Below, in pieces: positions 1-28,457 of a stretch of DNA of 44,211 nt (positions within the stretch are counted from its first letter, which is position 1; each line of letters begins with the position of its first letter). Under the pieces are notes generated by a model that was not told the origin of the DNA, did no database searches, and saw only the letters and a list, made by a program, of their open reading frames with translations. The position numbers and the translations under genes are program-made. Source of the stretch: a virus (taxonomy: Duplodnaviria; Heunggongvirae; Uroviricota; Caudoviricetes); the IMG/VR virus record IMGVR_UViG_2917413769_000009, positions 1-44,211 of that record; one strand, 5' to 3'.

Positions 1-1929
1 TTATTCCTCCAATTGTTTAAGACTGCGGCTGCGAATCTCTTGTTGCAGCTTCTCGATCACTTCATTTACGTCCATGCTTCCCAGGTCTTTACCACGGCGG
101 GTGCGAACGGCAACTTTGCCAGATTCCACCTCTTTATCACCACAGACCAGCATATATGGGACGCGACGCAAAGTGTGCTCGCGGATTTTAAAGCCAATCT
201 TCTCATTTCTCAAGTCTGCTTTAACACGAATGCCCGCATTTGATAGTTTTTGCGTCAATTCGTTAACGTATTCAGACTGTGAATCCGTAATGTTCATGAT
301 AACAACCTGAACCGGCGCAAGCCAGGTCGGGAAGAAACCAGCGAACTCTTCGGTCAGGATACCGATGAAACGTTCCATCGACCCAAGAATTGCACGGTGA
401 ATCATTACCGGAACCTTACGCTCGTTGTCTTCGCCTACATAGGAAGCGCTCAGACGAGACGGTAAGGAGAAGTCCAGCTGTACTGTACCGCACTGCCATG
501 CACGATCGAGGCAGTCATACAGGGTAAATTCAATTTTCGGACCGTAGAACGCGCCTTCACCCAGTTGATACTCAAACGGGATGTTGTTTTCTTCCAGCGC
601 AACTGCCAGGTCCGCCTCAGCACGATCCCACATTTCGTCACTGCCAATACGTTTTTCAGGACGAGTGGAAAGCTTGACCACGATCTTCTCGAAGCCAAAA
701 GTGCTGTACATATCATAGACTAAACGGATACATCCGTTAACTTCATCGCGAATTTGTTCTTCAGTACAGAAGATATGCGCGTCATCCTGGGTAAAACCAC
801 GCACGCGCATCAGGCCGTGCAGGGATCCTGACGGCTCGTTACGGTGGCAGCTACCGAACTCGGCCATACGCAGCGGCAGATCGCGATACGACTTCAGCCC
901 CTGGTTAAAGATTTGTACGTGACCCGGACAGTTCATCGGCTTAATGCAGTATTCACGGTTCTCAGAAGAGGTGGTGAACATTGCATCTTTATAGTTTTCC
1001 CAGTGACCGGTTTTTTCCCACAGGACGCGGTCCATCATAAACGGGCCTTTAACTTCCTGATACTGGTACTCTTTCAGTTTAGAGCGAACGAACACTTCCA
1101 GTTCACGGAAGATGGTCCAGCCGTCATTATGCCAGAACACCATACCCGGCGCTTCTTCCTGCATATGGTACAGGTCGAGCTGTTTACCGATTTTACGGTG
1201 GTCGCGTTTAGCGGCTTCTTCCAGACGCTGCAGATACGCGTTGAGGGCTTTTTTATCTGCCCACGCAGTACCATAAATACGTTGCAACATTTTGTTGTTG
1301 CTGTCGCCGCGCCAGTAGGCCCCTGCCGTTTTCATCAGTTTGAAATGGTGGCAGAAACGCATATTCGGTACGTGCGGACCGCGGCACATATCGACATATT
1401 CTTCGTGGAAATAGAGGCCAGGCTGGTCATCATGGGCGATGTTTTCGTCCAGGATGGAGACTTTATAGCTCTCGCCGCGTTTAACGAACGTTTCACGCGC
1501 TTCGTGCCAGCTGACTTTCTTCTTAATGACGTCGTAGTTTTTCTCAGCAAGCTCATGCATCCGCTTCTCGAGTGCTTCGACATCTTCCTGGGTTAACGTG
1601 CGGTCAAGATCAACGTCGTAATAGAAACCGTTGTCAATAACCGGGCCGATTGCCATTTTGGTATGCGGCCAAAGTTGTTTAATTGCGTGCCCTAACAGGT
1701 GCGCACAGGAGTGACGAATGATCTCCAGACCTTCTTCGTCTTTAGCGGTAATGATCGCCAGTTTAGCGTCGTTTTCAATCAAATCGCACGCATCTACCAG
1801 TTCGCCATTAACGCGCCCTGCGATACAGGCTTTCGCCAGACCTGGACCAATGTCCAGCGCAACATCCATGGGGCTTACAGCGTGGTCGTAATGGCGTTGG
1901 CTGCCATCAGGAAGAGTAATAACAGGCAT
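1..1929 (-). CDS. thrS: threonine--tRNA ligase (ThrRS)
   Basis: 642-aa ORF, complete (stop at 1-3, ATG at 1927-1929). Translation [16 protein letters not shown]...[10 protein letters not shown] matches the E. coli ThrRS sequence as I recall it over its full length. Confidence 0.97.
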
Positions 1930-2100
1930 GTTATATCCTTATTTGCAGTGGTGACCCACACGAAAGATCACATACAAAGAGAAAATTTGTTTGTTTTCAA
2001 TTCATTGCGCATCCATCTAGCCAACAGTCGCTAAATTGGTACACAATTTGGTACACAAATGAAAAATCGACACAGCAAGTTTTTCACCCAGTAAAATCAT
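1930..2100 (-). promoter_or_regulatory. thrS 5' leader / translational operator and promoter region (approximate extent)
   Basis: Immediately upstream of the thrS ATG; E. coli thrS is known to be autoregulated through a structured leader of about 160 nt. Boundaries were not determined from the sequence. Confidence 0.35.
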
Positions 2101-2514
2101 GGTAACACTAAAAAAGTAGTGATTGCACTATCTCTGTTTGACATTGACTAACATTGTCATCGCTTCAATGAAGTACATCGTCTAACCAGGCTGTTTTAGT
2201 TGATAATTGTGACTTTATATCGCTGATTGTTGGTACAAACGGAAAAGGAATGAGACAAAAAATAACACTATTTATTCATCGAATTAATGGTAACCACAAA
2301 TTAATACAGATGCACACCATCCGAACCTAAAGAAAGATAAGCGGAAGGTTTCCTGATAGTGCCGCCAGCACCTGACAATGATCTAGTTAATTCTCACGAC
2401 TAGCGACTACTAGCACTGTCGGCATATAAAGCTCACCAGGGTATGAGGTCAGATGATGGAGAAAAGAGGCTGAGGTGATAGTTGCCGATGATACAATATC
2501 GGCAACGTGCTTTT

Positions 2515-2808
2515 TCACCCACAATTAACTAACCGCCAGACCAGCAGACATGCCACCACCGGCACAGCAAAATCCATCAGGCTTGCCACATCCCAAGCGC
2601 GCGGATCAAAACCGCCCCACCACGGCATATTCATACGCTTGCCATGCCCGAACATTTCAATCCAGCGATATTCTGCCTGGGTGTGTTCACGCGCAATGAA
2701 GAACGTACAACCGGCTATAGCACCGTAAGCCCAGTTTCCGGTAAAAAGACCAATCAGTAACTGCGCAGCCACAGCACAAAGCGCATGAAGGAAAGGTGTT
2801 ATATCCAT
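2515..2808 (-). CDS. small predicted membrane protein (97 aa), last gene of the tail-fibre operon
   Basis: ORF with strong SD (AAGGAGG) 10 nt downstream of the preceding gene. Hydrophobic segments FLHALCAVAAQLLIGLFTG and LMDFAVPVVACLLVWRLV. No recognised family. Confidence 0.5.
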   Translation of the reverse strand: MDITPFLHALCAVAAQLLIGLFTGNWAYGAIAGCTFFIAREHTQAEYRWIEMFGHGKRMNMPWWGGFDPRAWDVASLMDFAVPVVACLLVWRLVNCG

Positions 2809-2818
2809 TACTCCTCCT

Positions 2819-3523
2819 TTATCCGATATCGCTTCGGGAAGTTGATAACAACTTTAATTCTGACTCAAGTTCATCAACTCTTTCAGTCAGTTTCTGGATA
2901 TGGTGAATCAGTGGAACAACCAGACGTTCGTACATTACACCTTCGGCAACAAGGCCATTGCTGGAAATAGCTTCAGGAGCATCATTCTCGTTAGCTGGTC
3001 GCCAGTGTACAAACTGAGGGGCAATTTCTCCTAATTCCTCGGCAATCAACCCGTAGAATCCCCAGTCACGCCTGTCATTTTCGCATTGCGACCTGTACCA
3101 CACAGGGCGCATCTTGAAAATGAGATCGGCGTGCTCTGAATCTATCGTCTCTACTGAATGTTTATAGCGAATAGACGATGTTGACCGCAGTACAGACGAA
3201 ATTGCGGGGTCAGGATTAAGATAAAGGTTTGCCGCCGCTGTAGTCGTGGCCAAATTCCATAAATAAAACGCTTCTCGACCTGTCAGCGGGTAAAAATCAC
3301 CGCCATAACGACCGCTTTCCAGATCGTTCGCTTCCACTTTGTTTTTCAGCTTATTATCAACTTCAGTTTTTGTGTATCTGGTGCTGATATCCTGCTTTGC
3401 ACTGGTCATATCAATCTGAAGCGTTGATACTTTTCCGTTAATTGAGGAAATATCTTCCTTAGTTTTACTGACATCTCCCTTTAGCGTGGTGATATCTCCT
3501 GGAATTACTGTCGATGTAGCCAT
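2819..3523 (-). CDS. tail-fibre-like protein with N-terminal coiled coil and C-terminal intramolecular chaperone (peptidase S74-like) domain
   Basis: 234-aa ORF with SD GAGGAAG. C-terminal segment SIRYKHSVE...GFYGLIAEELGEIAPQFV...YERLVVPLIHHIQKLTERVDELESELKLL follows the pattern of auto-cleaving chaperone domains of tailspikes/fibres (GxIAQE-like motif followed by a coiled coil). Confidence 0.6.
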   Translation of the reverse strand: MATSTVIPGDITTLKGDVSKTKEDISSINGKVSTLQIDMTSAKQDISTRYTKTEVDNKLKNKVEANDLESGRYGGDFYPLTGREAFYLWNLATTTAAANLYLNPDPAISSVLRSTSSIRYKHSVETIDSEHADLIFKMRPVWYRSQCENDRRDWGFYGLIAEELGEIAPQFVHWRPANENDAPEAISSNGLVAEGVMYERLVVPLIHHIQKLTERVDELESELKLLSTSRSDIG

Positions 3524-3532
3524 TTTTCTTCC

Positions 3533-3814
3533 TCACATCCAGCCACGAAGTTGATGCTCAACAGCAACCGCGTATTCATCGAATAATGACGATATTTGCG
3601 AATCATTAATGATGCGCACGTTTACAAAATATCCGTCTTCCTTAACACATACCGGTTCGCCATCTTCAGTCAGTTCTCCGGTTTCTTTGTACACGTTACC
3701 TATCACGTCAATAAGAATATCATCCTGCATCGTCTCGTCGTCATAATAGCCAGTGCTATCCATAAAGGCCGAAAAGTCGGCCCTGTCTGCAAATTTGAGT
3801 GTTAAATCTTTCAT
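3533..3814 (-). CDS. hypothetical acidic protein (93 aa), translationally coupled to stf; possible fibre assembly factor
   Basis: ATG at 3812-3814 overlaps the stf stop (ATGA overlap). Acidic composition, no recognised motif. Confidence 0.5.
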   Translation of the reverse strand: MKDLTLKFADRADFSAFMDSTGYYDDETMQDDILIDVIGNVYKETGELTEDGEPVCVKEDGYFVNVRIINDSQISSLFDEYAVAVEHQLRGWM

Positions 3815-6213
3815 TTAATACTCTCCCCCATTTGTGCCTCAGTTAATTCTTTATGCCAAATGCGTAAATTTTTCACATGACCGAACAGGTGTCTGTTGCC
3901 ACTGGATGATTGTCCACCGATATTAATATTACCGGCAGTATAACGTTGCAATGTATGCAGAGACGGGGAGCTGCTACCTAAAATTCCATCAACAACAACC
4001 TGCAACTGTTTATCTTCTGTAAACTTAAAGCCAGTAACAAATTTCCTTTTCTCTCTATTCCCATATGCTTTATATTCTGTTTTTGTTCCTTTGCCATTGG
4101 TGATAATTAGCCTTTTACCACGAGTGGTAAAACCAAAATACATATAACTTTCATCAGAAACTTCAGTCGTCGCCCCTGTAATTGAGATATTAAGCAAACG
4201 CGCAGAGCCTTCTAAATTAGGCATTTCAGAATCCCAATTAACATTAACTTCCATGAGAACACTAATTGGTGGAGTTGCCCAGTTGAAAGGTATAGGTATG
4301 ATTACCTGGTCACTTGCTCTCGTGGCACCGACCTCTGTTGTGATGATAAAAGATGAGGCGTTTAGTCCCTTTTCGAATTGAGGGGTTGTTAACATTAATT
4401 TATCGCCAGACTTGATTGATCGTTGATGTGCTCCAAACTCAAAACGCCCATACATATTTTTGGCTTCTGGTGATTTGTAGGTAAACTCAACACGAATCCA
4501 TCCATTAGACTCTCTGAATATGTTATAAGTTGCCGCCTCACCTCCAGAATAACTCAACATATCGCCAGTCTCGCAATCAATATATGCGCCAGCGGTCAGT
4601 GTGTTACTTGAGCCATCGTCGTTAACATATGATATTCTTGGACGCAACGTGATAATACCATCCCCACTTACTTTTTTAACTCTGCAGGATAAAGTAACTG
4701 ATTCATTTGCCGAAACTGAAATAACCCTGGTATATCCAGTAGAAATTAATGTCGCCCTTTCAGTTGTGGATGTTTCTTTAACGCCAAACAAACCATAACT
4801 GAAACCATACTCATCAACTCCCGTGGTAATAGTTAAGTTAGCAGTGTCATAGTTCCACGATGCTGGTGTATTCGTATAAGAAAAAGTATTCGTTCTCTGA
4901 CCTTCAATGAGCAGACCATCTTTTTCAAAACGTGGTTCATTTATCACTGATTCAGCAAAACACCCAGACTTATCTATATACGTTGCAGTTGACGCCCTGG
5001 TAAATGAAACAACCTTTTCAGACGGCAATGTAATAACATCGTCACCAACTGTGATGCTCTTATACCCAGGAGCAAACCCGGTAATCATATCCAGTGAATC
5101 GTTAAACGGTATCCACACATCAGGCAGCGGCTGTAAGACATATTTATACGGCTCTGCTGCCTGGCTTGCATACTCTCTGGCTGCGTCTTCACTTTCTTTA
5201 GCTGCCGTCTGGCTTGCAGCGGATGCTTTCGCCGAGTTCGCCGCTGCAGTCTCGCTTGTCTTTGCATTGGTTTCACTGGTTTTTGCTGCTTTTTGGCTGT
5301 TGGCTGATGCAGTGGCAGAAGCAGCCGCCGCGCTTGCAGAACCAGCTGCGGCACTCTCGCTTTGGGCTGCTGCATCCTGACTGTTTTTCGCCGCAGTTTC
5401 GCTGGCTTTGGCATTTGTTTCGCTGGTCTTCGCTGCCGCCTGGCTGGACTTTGCGTTTGTTTCGCTCGTTTTCGCGGCTTTCTGGCTGTTAGCCGCAGCT
5501 GTTGCTGATCCAGCTGCTGAAGTCGCCGAACCAGCTGCAGCATTCTCGCTTTCGGCTGCTGCATCCTGACTGCTTTTCGCCGCAGTTTCACTGGCTTTGG
5601 CATTTGTTTCGCTGGTCTTCGCTGCCGTCTGGCTGGACTTTGCGTTGGTTTCGCTCGTCTTTGCGGCTGTCTCGCTGTTTTTCGCGTTGGTTTCTGATTT
5701 TTTGGCTGCTGTCGCGGAGTTTGCCGATGCAGTCTGTGAGGTCGCTGCCGCCTGTGCGCTGTTAGCTGCATTCGTTTCTGAGGTTTTCGCCGCATTTTTC
5801 GATGATGCCGCTGCAGTTTCGGATTTCTTTGCCGCCGCTGCGCTCTGAGAGGCGGCTTCGGCGTTGCGTGCCGCTTCTTCCACCATTTCCTCAAAACGAC
5901 GCAATGCCTCAGGCATGACATCATCTTCCGTCATGGCACCGAGAAAATCATTCAGCGTACCTGGTCTGGAACCTTCATAGACGGTAATGATCCCGGCATG
6001 TGAAGGCGGAAAACCTTCAACCAGCAGGGTGACGCTGTACTGGCCATACTCAACATCCATGCTGTAACGCCCGGCTTCATCCGGATTTTCAGAGGCTACC
6101 GTGTTCACCAGTACCGTGGTGCTGTTACGCTTTGCCTTCAGTTGAATAGTGCAGTTCTGTATTGGTTTTCCCGCACCATCTTTCAGCACACCTGAGATTT
6201 TTACTGCTGCCAT
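3811..6213 (-). CDS. stf: side tail fibre protein (lambda Stf-like N-terminus, Ala/Ser/Thr-rich repeat shaft, LamG/ConA-like C-terminal domain)
   Basis: N-terminus MAAVKISGVLKDGAGKPIQNCTIQLKA...YSMDVEYGQYSV matches lambda Stf as recalled; start set at the ATG at 6213 (the ORF track starts at a GTG two codons upstream). C-terminus ...HLFGHVKNLRIWHKELTEAQM resembles the end of LamG-type jelly-roll domains. Confidence 0.85.
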   Translation of the reverse strand: MAAVKISGVLKDGAGKPIQNCTIQLKAKRNSTTVLVNTVASENPDEAGRYSMDVEYGQYSVTLLVEGFPPSHAGIITVYEGSRPGTLNDFLGAMTEDDVMPEALRRFEEMVEEAARNAEAASQSAAAAKKSETAAASSKNAAKTSETNAANSAQAAATSQTASANSATAAKKSETNAKNSETAAKTSETNAKSSQTAAKTSETNAKASETAAKSSQDAAAESENAAAGSATSAAGSATAAANSQKAAKTSETNAKSSQAAAKTSETNAKASETAAKNSQDAAAQSESAAAGSASAAAASATASANSQKAAKTSETNAKTSETAAANSAKASAASQTAAKESEDAAREYASQAAEPYKYVLQPLPDVWIPFNDSLDMITGFAPGYKSITVGDDVITLPSEKVVSFTRASTATYIDKSGCFAESVINEPRFEKDGLLIEGQRTNTFSYTNTPASWNYDTANLTITTGVDEYGFSYGLFGVKETSTTERATLISTGYTRVISVSANESVTLSCRVKKVSGDGIITLRPRISYVNDDGSSNTLTAGAYIDCETGDMLSYSGGEAATYNIFRESNGWIRVEFTYKSPEAKNMYGRFEFGAHQRSIKSGDKLMLTTPQFEKGLNASSFIITTEVGATRASDQVIIPIPFNWATPPISVLMEVNVNWDSEMPNLEGSARLLNISITGATTEVSDESYMYFGFTTRGKRLIITNGKGTKTEYKAYGNREKRKFVTGFKFTEDKQLQVVVDGILGSSSPSLHTLQRYTAGNINIGGQSSSGNRHLFGHVKNLRIWHKELTEAQMGESIK
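5200..5880. repeat. tandem imperfect coding repeats within the stf shaft
   Basis: Two near-identical blocks at about 5365-5480 and 5560-5680, giving the duplicated protein blocks AAKTSETNAKSSQ...AAKTSETNAKASETAAK(S/N)SQDAAA(E/Q)SE(N/S)AAAGSA. They generate long spurious ORFs on both strands. Confidence 0.7.
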
Positions 6214-6224
6214 ATCCACTCCAC

Positions 6225-6250
6225 AAAAAAGCCCGCCTGAACCGGCGGGC
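6225..6250 (-). terminator. rho-independent terminator-like hairpin downstream of lom
   Basis: Plus-strand GCCCGCC-TGAACC-GGCGGGC (6231-6250) preceded by A6 (6225-6230), i.e. hairpin followed by U6 on the minus-strand transcript. Confidence 0.55.
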
Positions 6251-6277
6251 TGTCATAACACTGTGTTACCTGGCTAA

Positions 6278-6877
6278 TCAGAATTTATAACCGACACCCA
6301 CGATGAAACCGTCAGTGCGCCAGTCGCCACTGCCGGAACCTTCATAAGCAAGGTCAATGGCCATGGATTCGGTCGGGTTAAACTGCACGCCAGCCCCCCA
6401 CGCCAGAGACGTGTTGCTGTGGCGACCGCCATCACTTCCGGTCAGCACATCGTGCGTTTTCCCCTTGTTGTCAGTTACGCGGAGATAATCCCCGGAGAAC
6501 GTCGAAACACGGCTGTAAGCCACACCCGCCATCGCATAAGCACTGAACCATTCATTCACGCGTACAGACGGCCCCGCCATCACGCTGAACCAGCGGTTAC
6601 GCACTGAATCTTCATGCCAGCGGGTATCGCTGTAACGGGTAATCTGGCGATTCTTGTCTCCTGCATAGCTGAATGACGTCACCAGCCCCAGCGTGTCCGT
6701 AAATTCATAACGGTATTTCACGTTAATGCCCTTCAGGTCATCGTTGCCGGGCATATCAGTATGGGACTGAAGATACCCGCCGCTTAGAGTGGACTGATGC
6801 TCTGCTGCACTCGCTGGCGTACCAGCGGCGACCAGCCAGACTACTGCAGACAGAATAACAGCACATAATTTACGCAT
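6278..6877 (-). CDS. lom: Lom/Ail/PagC-family outer-membrane beta-barrel protein
   Basis: 199 aa with signal peptide [24 protein letters not shown], alternating beta-strand pattern and C-terminal ...GVGYKF. Sits in the lambda lom position between J and stf. Confidence 0.9.
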
Positions 6878-6944
6878 AATTACCTCTCGCTTTTCTGCAA
6901 TAAAAAAGGCGCCATTTCTGGCGCCCGTATTGGGGTTATAAAAT

Positions 6945-26143: not shown

Positions 26144-26581
26144 TTAATTCAAACACTGCGTTCTGATGTACTCCTGCAAGTAGTTAACCTGCGCGGTTAT
26201 CCTGTCGATTCCACTTCGGAGACGGTAATAATTGAGTTCAGCATCTGCTGTAAGTCTTGGGCTTTCTCCATCGCCCATGCCGCTGGCTCCGGTCGTTGAC
26301 TTTGCACAGGTGGCGGCGACTTGCAGGCGCTTACGACCAGCAGAAACATCAGCACGGAGACTTTCGATAGTCGCGTTAGCATCAGCAAGCTCCTTTGTGT
26401 ATCTGGCGTCGAGTTCTGCTACATCACGTTGACGCTTCTGCATGTCAGCGATGATGTACGTGGCTTTATCGCGCTGGTCTTTGTAGGCGATGGCGTTATC
26501 ACGGTAATGATTAACAGCCCATGACAGGCAGACGATGATGCAGATAACCAGAACAGAGATAATCGCGGTTACCCTGCTCAT
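26144..26581 (-). CDS. Rz: i-spanin Rz
   Basis: Start at [31 protein letters not shown]..., matching the lambda Rz N-terminus as recalled; coupled to the endolysin stop. Confidence 0.85.
26197..26388 (-). CDS. Rz1: o-spanin Rz1 (lipoprotein) embedded in the +1 frame of Rz
   Basis: 63-aa ORF inside Rz with lipobox LVVSAC and a proline-rich segment. Confidence 0.8.
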
Positions 26582-27075
26582 TGTTGCCCCCACAAACAGA
26601 CCTCACGCTCAATCTCACGACGAGTCATCAGGCCTTTCCATTGCTTACCGCCAGCGTATGTCCAGCGACGTAGCTGGTCACATGCGCCCTTGATATCGCC
26701 CTGGTTTATTTTGCGAAGAAGAGTAGATGTTCTGAAATTGCCTGCGCCCACGTTATAGACGAACGAGTAAAGAGCGCCGCGCGTTGTTTCCGGTATATCG
26801 ACTTTGATGTACGGGTTAATTTGTCTGGCGACAGTGGCAAGGTCTTTATTCAGGAGGGCTTTGCATTCTGCTTCGGTATACGTTTTACCGAGCATAATGT
26901 CTTTTCCGGTGTGCCCGTAACATACAGTCCATACACCAACGATATCTTTATATGGTATGTAGCTGACGCCTTCCAGACCATCGTTACCACTTGGGCCAGT
27001 GATTAACACAGATGCTATAGCAATAGCCCCGCCACCAATAGCCGCAGCAACGGCTTTTCGTAATGATGGAGGCAT
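26578..27075 (-). CDS. R: SAR endolysin (phage-21 R21-type lysozyme)
   Basis: 165 aa; N-terminal Gly/Ala-rich weakly hydrophobic signal-anchor-release segment [20 protein letters not shown] followed by a lysozyme-like domain. Confidence 0.9.
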
Positions 27076-27290
27076 TATTCACCTCTCGCAGCCTTTCTTC
27101 TGTCTTCTCTGATTTTGAAGTACAGATTTGTCAGATAGGTGAGAAAGCCCAACACAAGGCTTCCAAGCACTCCAATCGCAGCCCACTGTGATGGACTGAC
27201 CTGATCCAACCACTGCAAAAACCAGTATCCCGCACTACCAGCGGATGTTCCGTAGGCAATGCCAGTTGAGATTTTGTCCATTGATTTCAT
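27075..27290 (-). CDS. S: pinholin (phage-21 S21-type) with dual-start motif
   Basis: 71 aa, [71 protein letters not shown], which I recognise as the S21 holin/antiholin sequence. Confidence 0.9.
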
Positions 27291-27833: not shown

Positions 27834-28457
27834 CTAACGTGTGACCGCATTCAAAATGTTGTCTGCGATTGACTCTTCTTTGTGGCATTGCACCACCAGA
27901 GCGTCATACAGCGGCTTAACAGTGCGTGACCAGGTGGGTTGAGTAAGGTTTGGGATTAGCATCGTTACAGCGCGATATGCGGCGCTTGCTGGCATTCTTG
28001 AATAGCCGACACCTTTGCATCTTCCGCACTCTTTCTCAACAACTCTCCCCCACTGCTCTGTTTTGGCTATATCAACCGCACGGCCTGTACCGTGGCAATC
28101 TCTGCATCTTGCGCCCGGCGTCGCGGCACTACGGCAATAATCCGCATAAGCGAATGTTGCGAGCACTTGCAGTACCTTTGCCTTAGTATTTCCTTCAAGC
28201 TTTGCCACACCACGGTATTTCCCCGATACCTTGTGTGCAAATTGCATCAGATAGTTGATAGCCTTTTGTTTGTCGTTCTGGCTGAGTTCATGCTTACCGC
28301 AGAATGCAGCCATTCCGAATCCGGCTTGTGATTGCGCCATCCCCATAGCAGCCATCACATCAGTACCGGAAAGAGAGTCAGAAGCCGTAGCCCGTGGTGA
28401 GTCGCTCATCATCGGGCTTTTTGGCGAATGAAATTTAGCTACGCTTTCGAGTCTCAT
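27834..28457 (-). CDS. Q: late antiterminator Q (lambda type)
   Basis: 207 aa, [60 protein letters not shown]..., essentially lambda Q as recalled. Confidence 0.95.

What the first reader, a model, noticed from the sequence alone, without database searches (positions are those of the whole stretch)
2515..2808. Small membrane protein at the prophage end after the fibre genes: candidate superinfection-exclusion factor
A 97-aa protein with two hydrophobic helices and a strong RBS is the last gene before the host junction. Small membrane or lipoprotein genes at this position (for example cor-type) often block receptors or DNA entry.
Basis: inference. Interest (0 to 1): 0.4.

Follow-up and report, generated by a model that had tools for sequence, protein, structure and literature searches.

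The report
Small membrane protein trailing fibre genes
This is a real gene for a 97-residue inner-membrane protein from a large, uncharacterised phage family that nearly always sits directly behind the genes for a phage's host-recognition fibres; blocking other phages is a plausible job for it but is untested, and it is not a Cor-type receptor blocker.

Summary
The ORF at 2515..2808 (- strand) is real. It has AGGAGG 4 nt before the ATG, dN/dS of about 0.1, and 443 homologue clusters. It is the last gene before the prophage/host junction at about 2147, upstream of thrS. AlphaFold gives a confident three-helix membrane bundle. The family (PHROG 1443, "unknown function") has no Pfam, NCBIfam, PADLOC, PDB or fold match. 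Its invariant residues (H8, R40-E41, Q44, E46, W72, P83) lie on one membrane face, probably the cytoplasmic one.

The gene is a one-ORF cassette attached to the 3' end of receptor-binding-protein genes of unrelated types: lambdoid side fibres, P22-like and pectate-lyase tailspikes, T7-like fibres, DGR Mtd-like targets and P2-type fibre/chaperone pairs. It often overlaps the upstream gene by 4 nt. In this window it has no detectable promoter and lies behind two terminators, which suggests late expression.

It is not the holin, because canonical holins coexist with it. It is not needed for fibre assembly, because virulent phages carry the same fibre module without it. It is not a lipoprotein.

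My best guess, at about 0.35, is an exclusion or conversion-type accessory factor that acts from the inner membrane. The function remains open.

The parts
2515..2808 (-). The gene in question ('FAM'). It encodes a 97-aa, three-helix predicted inner-membrane protein of PHROG 1443. Conserved residues are H8, Q16, G29, R40, E41, Q44, E46, W72, D79 and P83.
   Evidence: ORF; PHROG match; alignments; AlphaFold model; dN/dS of 0.10.
2813..2818 (-). Shine-Dalgarno AGGAGG, 4 nt before the ATG and directly after the TAA (2819-2821) of the upstream fibre gene.
   Evidence: Sequence read. Homology between cassettes in different phages starts at this RBS.
2819..3523 (-). Distal lateral-fibre protein of 234 aa with a Peptidase_S74 intramolecular chaperone domain. 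It is the receptor-binding-protein gene the cassette is attached to.
   Evidence: Pfam PF13884 and tail-fibre PHROGs. It is 57% identical to gp83 of the virulent phage tunus.
3533..3814 (-). A 93-aa acidic protein (PHROG 1361) that belongs to the lateral-fibre module.
   Evidence: It lies next to lateral fibre genes in 179 phage records.
3811..6219 (-). Side tail fibre (Stf-like) of 802 aa, with the 'Prophage tail fibre N-terminal' domain.
   Evidence: Pfam PF08400 at E=1.8e-66 and PHROG 1419.
6230..6251 (-). Terminator-like hairpin after the lom-like gene and immediately before stf. Together with a second hairpin at 6907-6926, it separates the fibre-FAM genes from upstream transcription unless transcription is antiterminated.
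2481..2506 (+). A 10-bp stem-loop abutting the FAM stop codon. The T-run is on the + strand, so it reads as a terminator for convergent transcription; on the FAM strand it lacks a U-tract.
2148..2514 (.). Non-coding right arm of the prophage, between FAM and the host junction at about 2147/2148.
   Evidence: Prophage-free E. coli genomes match only 1931-2147, while 71 genomes with a prophage at this site match 1931-2505.

Best explanation
**What it is (high confidence).** A functional gene for a small integral inner-membrane protein. It has three helices: a TM1-TM2 hairpin, a 34-residue conserved basic and aromatic loop, and TM3. It belongs to a large, phage-restricted, uncharacterised family found in phages and prophages of Proteobacteria and Desulfovibrio. 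The gene behaves as a one-ORF cassette (RBS plus ORF) attached to the 3' end of receptor-binding-protein genes. In most settings it is transcribed, and often translationally coupled, with them.

**What it most likely does (inference, about 0.35).** It is an accessory, non-structural, non-lytic factor that makes the producing cell refractory to phage from the inner membrane. That is an exclusion or conversion-type function, mechanistically unlike Cor or Llp. The invariant H8 / R40-E41 / Q44 / E46 / W72 / D79 site lies at one membrane interface, which the positive-inside rule places on the cytoplasmic side. This site would bind a conserved inner-membrane component.

Two sub-mechanisms are compatible:
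- (a) Interference with lipid-linked surface-glycan assembly or export, which would remove or alter the glycans recognised by the adjacent fibres and spikes. I slightly favour this one, because the upstream receptor-binding proteins are mostly glycan-directed and the slot is the one used by gtr, oac and similar conversion genes.
- (b) A block of DNA translocation across the inner membrane.

**Shown:** gene reality, fold, family size, linkage to receptor-binding-protein genes, cassette boundaries, coexistence with holins, dispensability for the fibre module.

**Inferred:** membrane location, topology, timing of expression, and all of the function.
For: **Real gene under constraint.**
- PHROG 1443 match at E=8e-58.
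- 443 clusters, nearly all stand-alone proteins of 90-120 aa.
- dN/dS of 0.10.
- Invariant R40, E41 and W72; H8, G29, Q44, A45, E46 and P83 conserved in at least 90% of distant members.

**Membrane protein.** Hydropathy is. The three-helix model has pLDDT 89.9. The loop carries 5.4-5.5 Lys+Arg, against 0.6 or fewer in each tail, which places the loop in the cytoplasm.

**Linkage to receptor-binding-protein genes.**
- Phage 21: stf, then a 92-aa gene, then FAM.
- P22-like JEP4: the tailspike overlaps FAM by 4 nt, in the slot before int.
- phiHAP-1: the fibre-assembly gene overlaps FAM, in the slot where P2 carries the conversion gene fun(Z).
- A T7-like contig: gp17-like gene, then FAM.
- A DGR cassette: Mtd-like gene, then FAM, then bAvd, then RT.
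- An SU10-like contig: a 1082-aa tail-fibre protein, then a 133-aa ORF, then FAM.
- Of 78 diverse IMG/VR loci, 52 have a tightly abutting same-strand upstream gene, 34 of which overlap FAM. In 40 of those 52, a fibre or spike gene lies within two genes upstream.

**Upstream proteins are mostly glycan-directed.** They include pectate-lyase-like spikes, S74/endosialidase-type fibres, a ConA-like lectin Stf and a P22-type spike. Lateral fibres of small siphoviruses are proposed to target O-antigen glycans (PMC8594841).

**Accessory, not essential.** The virulent phages tunus and KarlBarth carry the same Stf-p93-distal-fibre module (57% identity) without FAM. Phage HC6 keeps only a decayed remnant after its tailspike.

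**Mosaic cassette.** Homology among five phages starts at the RBS and stops at the stop codon. GC content is 0.52, against 0.43-0.46 for the fibre genes.

**Moron-like in phage Gally.** The order there is terminator, AT-rich spacer with a promoter-like site, then the gene.

**Retention in prophages.** The gene is intact in the cryptic Rac remnant of E. coli B-type strains, where the tail genes are gone. It is present in 35% of complete E. coli genomes.
Against: - There is no homology to any known exclusion, conversion or defence protein.
- No promoter belongs to the cassette and none is detected in this window.
- Two terminator-like hairpins precede the fibre operon. In E. coli 2452 a terminator sits 21 nt before the start codon. 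Expression may therefore be late-lytic only, which is an odd time for exclusion.
- The protein does not co-vary with the type of receptor-binding protein, unlike Cor, Llp or Gtr.
- It also occurs in apparently virulent phages: T7-like, SU10-like and jumbo.
- Topology is not settled. One family member has a lipoprotein-like N-terminal extension that would put the N-terminus outside.
- A 97-residue protein with no enzyme homology is a weak candidate for glycan chemistry. It would have to act as an inhibitor or binder.
Confidence: 0.35

Rival explanations
1. Lysis-timing or membrane-energetics modulator. The protein would be a small oligomeric membrane protein made together with the last structural genes. 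It would perturb the membrane potential or interact with the holin, so that lysis follows completion of the fibres. It would be an auxiliary holin or antiholin-like factor, not the primary holin.
For: - It is co-expressed, and often translationally coupled, with late receptor-binding-protein genes.
- Size and helix count fit a class I holin-like protein. GxxxG-like small-residue spacing and a conserved mid-membrane Gln16 are present.
- Precedent from my own knowledge: the T4 holin gene t follows fibre gene 38, and T7 holin gene 17.5 follows fibre gene 17.
- In the T7-like contig L115, FAM sits directly between the gp17-like gene and the T7-type holin.
- In L159 an endolysin follows FAM.
- Several other downstream neighbours are small membrane or coiled-coil proteins.
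Against: - Canonical holins coexist with it: a P21-type pinholin, lysozyme and Rz in this window about 24 kb away, and a T7-type holin in L115.
- It has no charged C-terminal tail.
- An invariant polar motif is atypical of holins, which are very poorly conserved.
- Downstream genes are heterogeneous: adaptor, Avd, structural and host genes.
- The gene persists intact in cryptic prophage remnants without the tail genes (in E. coli 2452 next to a fragmentary rrrD lysozyme pseudogene).
Confidence: 0.15
2. Helper for the biogenesis of receptor-binding proteins. The protein would be a membrane-anchored factor whose cytoplasm-facing conserved loop assists folding, trimerisation, localisation or attachment of fibres and spikes, or prevents them from being titrated by lipid-linked glycans at the inner leaflet.
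For: - The position and coupling are those typical of fibre chaperone genes, immediately 3' of the receptor-binding-protein gene with frequent 4-nt overlaps.
- The conserved face is predicted to be cytoplasmic, which is where fibres fold.
- No classical tfa gene is present in this window's fibre module.
Against: - The same fibre module works without it in the virulent phages tunus and KarlBarth, where a terminator follows the distal fibre gene directly.
- Phage HC6 has only a decayed copy.
- The upstream proteins have unrelated folds, including self-folding beta-helix spikes and fibres with their own S74 chaperone.
- Known fibre chaperones are soluble, and there is no match to Tfa families.
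Confidence: 0.12
3. Host-fitness moron unrelated to phage resistance. The protein would be a small membrane protein, for example an ion or metal-binding protein or a small transporter or regulator subunit, that benefits the lysogen. It would hitch-hike with receptor-binding-protein modules because these are the most frequently exchanged parts of phage genomes.
For: - Cassette-like mosaic boundaries and a GC jump.
- Terminator-promoter-gene layout in phage Gally.
- The gene sits at prophage ends next to other cargo, such as sitABCD in phage 21 and a P-loop NTPase in strain 2452.
- The conserved His, Glu and Asp residues could bind a metal.
- The gene is retained in a cryptic Rac remnant.
Against: - The linkage to receptor-binding-protein genes is far tighter than hitch-hiking needs. 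The gene sits even inside a DGR cassette, and between T7 gp17-like and holin genes.
- No promoter travels with the cassette.
- It is present in phages that do not lysogenise.
Confidence: 0.15
4. Cor/Llp-type outer-membrane lipoprotein that masks the receptor used by the phage's own tail.
For: - The position after the tail-fibre genes matches.
- A lipobox-like I-A-G-C lies at residues 31-34 and is invariant in the enterobacterial clade.
- The phage 21 record notes a SignalP signal sequence of 29 aa.
Against: - There is no Lys or Arg in the first 33 residues, so the PROSITE lipoprotein rule fails (rule recalled from my own knowledge).
- The Cys is absent in 44 of 50 distant members.
- A confident three-helix bundle includes the supposed signal peptide.
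- There is no homology to Cor or Llp families.
- The neighbouring proteins are lateral fibres and spikes of many types, not FhuA-type tip proteins.
Confidence: 0.03

Closest known systems
Cor (phi80, N15, T1-like phages) and Llp (T5): receptor-blocking exclusion lipoproteins
   Same: Both are small envelope proteins encoded next to receptor-binding-protein genes and carried along with the host-recognition module.
   Different: Cor and Llp are outer-membrane lipoproteins specific for one receptor, FhuA. This protein has no homology to them. It fails the lipoprotein criteria, is a three-helix integral membrane protein, and stays the same next to unrelated fibre and spike types.
Serotype-conversion genes beside tailspike genes: gtrABC (P22, Shigella phages), oac (Sf6), and the small hydrophobic polymerase inhibitors of epsilon15 and D3 (Iap). 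Recalled from my own knowledge.
   Same: It occupies the same slot between the tailspike gene and att/int in the P22-like phages JEP4 and Gally. It is a predicted inner-membrane protein. The neighbouring receptor-binding proteins are glycan-directed.
   Different: There is no match to GtrA or acyltransferase families, and no partner genes. It is usually on the same strand as, and coupled to, the late fibre gene rather than being an independently expressed lysogenic unit. No glycan phenotype is known.
P2 Fun(Z), the lysogenic-conversion gene between tail-fibre assembly gene G and sheath gene FI
   Same: In the P2-type tail cluster of phiHAP-1 the homologue occupies the same slot, between the fibre-assembly and sheath genes. 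The P2 record states that cloned fun(Z) blocks T5.
   Different: Fun(Z) is a 528-aa protein on the opposite strand behind a terminator. It is unrelated in size and sequence.
Inner-membrane exclusion proteins that block DNA entry: T4 Imm, P22 SieA, HK97 gp15
   Same: These are small phage-encoded inner-membrane proteins, and a DNA-entry block is one of the two sub-mechanisms I consider.
   Different: No sequence relationship was found through Pfam or PHROG. Those genes are not linked to receptor-binding-protein genes and are expressed early or from the prophage.
Holins encoded just after fibre genes: T7 gp17.5 and T4 gpt
   Same: Small membrane proteins directly 3' of the tail-fibre gene and co-expressed late.
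   Different: Canonical holins are present alongside it. It has no charged C-terminus, and its strongly conserved polar motif is unlike holins.
Tail-fibre assembly chaperones (Tfa, gp38 and similar)
   Same: The gene position and frequent translational coupling to the receptor-binding-protein gene are the same.
   Different: The chaperones are soluble, whereas this protein is membrane-embedded. The homologous fibre module exists without it in virulent phages.

Membership tests
PHROG 1443 (uncharacterised phage protein family) | Full-length profile match | tested here: met
   E=8e-58, with residues 1-95 aligned to profile positions 1-95 of 97. It is 94% identical to phage 21 CPT_21_24.
Cor / Llp receptor-blocking lipoproteins | Sequence homology to Cor or Llp families | tested here: not met
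   No Pfam, PHROG, NCBIfam or PADLOC hit other than two PHROGs of unknown function.
Cor / Llp receptor-blocking lipoproteins | Lipoprotein signal peptide: a basic n-region plus a lipobox Cys, conserved across the family | tested here: not met
   A lipobox-like IAGC lies at 31-34, but there is no Lys or Arg before it. The Cys is present in all 32 closer members but in only 6 of 50 distant ones.
Cor / Llp receptor-blocking lipoproteins | Pairing with one receptor-specific tip protein | tested here: not met
   Upstream genes are unrelated lateral fibres and tailspikes.
Superinfection-exclusion proteins in general | Reduced plating, adsorption or DNA entry of challenge phages when the gene is expressed | not testable with these tools
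   This needs expression and phage challenge experiments.
Moron (independent add-on transcription unit) | Own promoter and terminator, with composition different from the neighbours | tested here: inconclusive
   GC is 0.52 against 0.43-0.46 and the boundaries are mosaic. However, no promoter is found in this window, and the hairpin after the gene has its T-run on the other strand. Only phage Gally shows the terminator-promoter-gene layout.
Holins | Membership of the lysis cassette, or being the sole holin candidate; a charged C-terminal tail | tested here: not met
   A P21 holin (PF04971, E=8.6e-36) and a lysozyme lie at 26.6-27.3 kb in the window. A T7-type holin sits next to the homologue in L115. 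The C-terminus ends 2-3 residues after TM3.
Tail-fibre assembly chaperones | Homology to Tfa families, or a requirement for the adjacent fibre | tested here: not met
   There is no Pfam match. The homologous fibre module occurs without the gene in tunus and KarlBarth. The requirement itself was not tested experimentally.
GtrA-type or acyltransferase conversion proteins | Family homology and partner genes (gtrB, gtrC) | tested here: not met
   There is no match for the query or for 50 distant members, and no partner genes lie between the ORF and thrS.
Integral inner-membrane protein | Transmembrane helices and topology | tested here: inconclusive
   Three hydrophobic or amphipathic helices are predicted. 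The positive-inside rule puts the conserved loop in the cytoplasm, but N-terminal extensions in two family members disagree with each other. Localisation was not tested.

The most novel reading that the evidence does not exclude
The family is a new, widespread class of accessory factor coupled to receptor-binding-protein genes. It would be a roughly 100-residue inner-membrane protein that uses a conserved cytoplasm-facing His/Arg-Glu/Gln-x-Glu/Trp site to bind a universal envelope-biogenesis component, such as undecaprenyl-phosphate-linked glycan intermediates or the enzymes that start, flip or ligate them. Surface-glycan display would then be shut off or altered whenever the glycan-binding fibres or spikes are made. 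That would be a generic way to stop superinfection, progeny loss on debris, or titration of newly made fibres, whatever the receptor specificity.
Probability: 0.2. Interest if true: 0.7.

Novelty: new variant of a known kind. Interest (0 to 1): 0.45.

Why it matters
Genes next to receptor-binding-protein genes are where phages keep functions tied to host recognition, such as chaperones, receptor blockers and serotype converters. Here a single conserved membrane protein follows fibre and spike genes of unrelated architecture in siphoviruses, podoviruses, myoviruses, a jumbo phage and DGR cassettes.

The family comprises 443 sequence clusters and occurs in about a third of complete E. coli genomes, including BL21-type laboratory strains. 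It has no annotation anywhere.

Working out its function would do three things. It would fill a recurrent blank in phage genome maps. It would matter for engineering host range by swapping fibre modules, because the cassette travels with them. It could also reveal a receptor-independent way in which phages manipulate the envelope. If it turns out to be a dispensable passenger, that is still useful for annotation.

Tried and rejected
**Remote homology gave nothing.**
- Pfam, NCBIfam and PADLOC on the query.
- Pfam on 50 distant members: only scattered sub-threshold hits such as PhoR, VirB3 and one Phage_holin_8.
- A family profile against PDB sequences: no hit even at E=10.

**Literature.** Searches by accession, PHROG number, phage 21 and positional descriptors found no study of this protein. 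The infant-gut coliphage paper, which sequenced many carriers, does not single it out.

**Hypotheses considered and rejected.**
- Holin: rejected because canonical holins coexist with it.
- Lipoprotein: rejected.
- Exclusive link to the S74 chaperone domain: rejected because upstream proteins also include pectate-lyase spikes, T7-type fibres, P22-type spikes and lectin-type Stf.
- Obligate partnership with the 93-aa neighbour: rejected because JEP4 and most metagenomic loci lack it, and it is common without FAM.
- Downstream neighbours as a clue: they are heterogeneous, or are host genes.

**Technical dead ends.** Short metagenomic contigs gave no context. The distant alignment was too divergent for the locus finder.
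Full report
**1. The observation.**
The - strand ORF at 2515..2808 encodes 97 aa. Read on the - strand, the junction with the upstream gene is TAA-AGGAGG-AGTA-ATG. A consensus Shine-Dalgarno therefore sits 4 nt from the start and directly after the upstream stop codon.

Hydropathy shows two strongly hydrophobic segments (about 5-23 and 74-95) and a weaker Gly/Ala-rich one (25-39). AlphaFold2, run with a 32-sequence alignment, gives a confident model (mean pLDDT 89.9, pTM 0.71) with helices at 4-23, 26-52 and 74-96.

thrS occupies 1..1929 on the - strand. Prophage-free E. coli genomes match the window only up to about 2147, whereas 71 genomes with a prophage at the same site match up to about 2505. 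The junction is therefore near 2147/2148, and this ORF is the last credible prophage gene; the largest ORF between them is 45 aa.

The gene is real:
- It gives a full-length match to PHROG 1443 at E=8e-58.
- It has 575 homologues in the protein database and 443 clusters at 50% identity.
- The median dN/dS among 18 E. coli alleles is 0.10.
- It is present in 1918 of 5426 complete E. coli genomes, with a median of two copies in the genomes that have it.

**2. What the protein looks like.**
No Pfam, NCBIfam or PADLOC family matches. The same holds when 50 distant members are scanned individually. A family profile finds nothing among PDB sequences. Fold searches return only generic helical bundles. 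All source names are "hypothetical protein"; the phage 21 record calls it a "putative membrane protein".

Family members are almost all stand-alone proteins of 90-120 aa. Conservation is striking for a small phage membrane protein:
- In closer relatives the motif A-R-E-H-T-Q-A-E-Y-R-W-I...G-K-R-x-N-M-P-W-W-G-G-F-D-x-R-x-W is nearly invariant.
- Across members that are 30-50% identical, R40, E41 and W72 are invariant. H8, G29, Q44, A45, E46 and P83 are conserved in at least 90%, and Q16, D79 and R58 are frequent.

These residues lie at the N-terminal end of helix 1, the C-terminal end of helix 2, the loop, and the N-terminal end of helix 3. In a three-helix bundle that is a single membrane face. 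The loop carries on average 5.4-5.5 Lys+Arg, against 0.6-0.7 in each tail and none in the helix 1-2 turn. The positive-inside rule therefore puts the conserved face in the cytoplasm, with the N-terminus in and the C-terminus out.

This is an inference. N-terminal extensions in two family members give conflicting hints, and the phage 21 annotators reported two TMDs with a signal sequence.

**3. Where the gene sits.**
The constant feature is the upstream neighbour.
- In this window it is a 234-aa distal fibre protein with a Peptidase_S74 chaperone domain. That gene is preceded by a 93-aa protein (PHROG 1361) and an 802-aa Stf-like fibre.
- Among 81 close E. coli copies (80 IMG/VR loci plus this window), three main architectures occur: 93 aa + 234-aa fibre; 93 aa + 346-aa fibre; and Stf + 92 aa as in phage 21.
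- In P22-like JEP4 the gene overlaps the tailspike stop by 4 nt and precedes int. That tailspike is unrelated to the window's fibre, although the two membrane proteins are 78% identical.
- In Halomonas phage phiHAP-1 (P2-type tail) it overlaps the fibre-assembly gene and precedes the sheath gene. This is the slot where P2 carries the conversion gene fun(Z).
- In an SU10-like contig a 1082-aa tail-fibre protein and a 133-aa ORF precede it.
- In the jumbo Aeromonas phage ACP1 it lies next to a spike-like gene.

I then pulled 80 diverse IMG/VR loci with a degenerate pattern for a divergent subgroup of the family. Of these, 78 contain the ORF. The counts are:
- 61 have a same-strand upstream gene.
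- 52 of those abut tightly, between -40 and +30 nt.
- 34 overlap, 23 of them by the classic 4 or 1 nt.
- In 40 of the 52, the first or second upstream gene belongs to a cluster whose representative is annotated as a tail fibre or tailspike, or is an Mtd-like DGR target.

The upstream proteins are of unrelated types: pectate-lyase-like spikes, S74/endosialidase-type fibres, a T7 gp17-type fibre, a P22 head-binding spike and a lectin-type Stf. In L166 the order is Mtd-like target, this gene, bAvd, then reverse transcriptase, so the gene sits inside a diversity-generating retroelement cassette. Exceptions exist: an early-gene region, a portal gene and a Rha-like regulator as neighbours.

A species-level genome scan finds the family in prophage regions of Gamma-, Beta- and Alphaproteobacteria and Desulfovibrio. 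It often lies at the prophage edge next to host genes.

**4. Cassette structure and expression.**
Aligning the gene with 150-bp flanks from this window, phage 21, JEP4, Gally and E. coli 2452 shows homology starting at the RBS and stopping at the stop codon; the flanks are unrelated. GC content jumps from 0.43-0.46 in the fibre genes to 0.52 in this gene. It is therefore a mobile one-ORF cassette with no promoter of its own.

In this window no sigma-70-like promoter is found on the - strand between 1900 and 4000. Two terminator-like hairpins, after J and after the lom-like gene, precede stf. In E. coli 2452 a terminator-like hairpin sits 21 nt before the start codon.

Together with the frequent overlaps, this suggests expression with the antiterminated late fibre transcript. 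Consensus scans are weak evidence for this.

Gally is the counter-example. There the order is a strong terminator after the tailspike gene, 190 bp of AT-rich DNA with a promoter-like site, and then the gene.

The hairpin at 2481-2506, abutting the stop codon, has its T-run on the opposite strand.

**5. What it is not.**
- **Not the holin.** The window has a P21-type pinholin, a lysozyme and an Rz-like gene at 26.1-27.3 kb. In the T7-like contig L115 the order is gp17-like fibre, this gene, a T7-family holin (PF10746), small terminase, then large terminase.
- **Not required for the fibre.** The virulent phages tunus and KarlBarth carry the same Stf / 93-aa / distal-fibre module. The tunus distal fibre is 57% identical over its full length. 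A terminator follows it directly and this gene is absent. Phage HC6 retains only a frame-disrupted remnant right after its 859-aa spike.
- **Not a Cor/Llp-type lipoprotein.** The IAGC at 31-34 resembles a lipobox. However, no basic residue precedes it, the Cys is missing in 44 of 50 distant members, and the region is part of a confidently modelled helical hairpin.

**6. Best explanation and rivals.**
The identity of the gene is secure. It is an accessory, conserved inner-membrane protein that travels with, and is usually expressed with, receptor-binding-protein genes.

Its function is inferred only. I put about 0.35 on an exclusion or conversion-type role exerted from the inner membrane. The reasons are:
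- It occupies the classical slots of receptor-related accessory genes: after lambdoid fibres, between tailspike and int in P22-like phages, and at the P2 fun(Z) position.
- The neighbouring receptor-binding proteins are mostly glycan-directed. Lateral fibres of small siphoviruses are proposed to target O-antigen (PMC8594841).
- It is dispensable for virion function, decays in a virulent phage, and is kept intact in the cryptic Rac remnant of E. coli B-type strains.
- It is restricted to diderm hosts.

The main counter-arguments are the apparent late-only expression, the lack of co-variation with the receptor-binding protein, and its presence in T7-like, SU10-like and jumbo phages.

The rivals are:
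- a lysis-timing or membrane-potential modulator (0.15);
- a helper for receptor-binding-protein biogenesis (0.12);
- a host-fitness moron that merely hitch-hikes with the most mobile phage module (0.15);
- the Cor-type lipoprotein reading (0.03).

The remainder is "something else".

**7. Novelty and verdict.**
The family is catalogued only as a PHROG of unknown function, and I found no paper on it. The tight, architecture-independent linkage to receptor-binding-protein genes, and the invariant one-sided polar motif, appear not to have been described.

Relative to known accessory proteins linked to receptor-binding-protein genes (Cor, Llp, Gtr, Oac, Fun(Z), fibre chaperones, T7 and T4 holins), it is at most a new variant of that kind. 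Nothing shows a new principle yet.

Its interpretation is partly supported: the positional reasoning holds, while the Cor analogy and the lysogen-protection timing do not. Interest is moderate at 0.45. The gene is easy to test because BL21-type strains carry an intact copy.

Noticed in passing
window 2819..6219 (- strand): The three-gene lateral-fibre module (802-aa Stf, 93-aa PHROG 1361 protein, 234-aa S74 distal fibre) is shared with virulent T1-like, Dhillonvirus, T5-like and rV5-like phages. The distal fibre is 57% identical to tunus gp83, and the 93-aa protein is found in 179 phage records. Fibre modules are evidently exchanged between temperate and virulent coliphages.
   Followed up: partly
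window 4900..5950, inside the Stf gene: The Stf gene contains long Ala/Ser/Thr/Glu-rich tandem repeats (AAKTSETNAKSSQ-like). These generate large spurious ORFs in other frames and on the other strand, for example 5085..5924 (- strand, 279 aa) and 4907..5380 (+ strand, 157 aa).
   Followed up: no
window 6230..6926 (- strand): The lom-like gene (6278..6877, 199 aa; its homologue is annotated Ail/Lom family in E. coli CFSAN061763) is bracketed by two strong terminator-like hairpins at 6907-6926 and 6230-6251. This is a textbook moron layout. The T-run of the second hairpin overlaps the GTG start of stf.
   Followed up: partly
window 26144..27290 (- strand): A phage 21-type lysis cassette: pinholin (PF04971, 71 aa), a lysozyme whose N-terminus is hydrophobic and SAR-like (165 aa), and an overlapping 149-aa Rz-like ORF. 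A 207-aa ORF at 27834..28457 upstream is probably the late antiterminator.
   Followed up: partly
window 1930..2514; L004 (E. coli 2452): The prophage is integrated upstream of thrS. 71 complete E. coli genomes share the 575-bp junction arm at 98.8% identity. In strain 2452 a P-loop NTPase gene sits between the membrane-protein homologue and thrS, and the prophage there is a remnant in which a lysozyme fragment abuts a fibre fragment. thrS and its leader are only about 80-95% identical to E. coli, and the best genomic match for the membrane protein is Escherichia ruysiae, so the window is probably from a non-coli Escherichia.
   Followed up: partly
L266 (E. coli T7Express_Crystal, BL21-type) 4976..6424: The cryptic Rac remnant of this B-type laboratory strain keeps an intact copy of the membrane protein (WP_000355360.1) and the 92-aa protein between trkG/ynaK and pinR, although the tail genes are gone. 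This makes a convenient system for testing expression and phenotype.
   Followed up: partly
L166 4181..7450 (also L114, L164, L219 and L220 by gene-size pattern): A homologue lies inside a diversity-generating retroelement cassette, between the Mtd-like variable target gene and bAvd/reverse transcriptase.
   Followed up: partly
L264 (phage HC6) 2938..3093: A frame-disrupted remnant of the gene (…RRRANIPWWGGFDWRAWDLPSLLD) follows the 859-aa tailspike directly. Similar unannotated fragments occur in Salmonella phage ST1UNAM and Escherichia phages PBM-2 and PBM-3, and PHROG 34165 is a 46-aa family matching only residues 52-97. I did not resolve whether these half-length forms are pseudogenes or functional mini-proteins.
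   Followed up: partly
alignment A3, window about 2600..2720: Roughly 105 nt encoding helix 2 and the REHTQAEYRW motif are almost identical at the DNA level, including at synonymous sites, between copies whose N- and C-terminal parts have diverged (78% protein identity overall). This suggests intragenic recombination, or a constraint acting on the nucleotide sequence itself.
   Followed up: no
L001 (phage 21) 5386..8835: In phage 21 and many infant-gut lambdoid phages, the sitABCD iron/manganese transporter operon lies immediately beyond this gene on the opposite strand. In this window that cargo is absent and the gene abuts the att arm.
   Followed up: no
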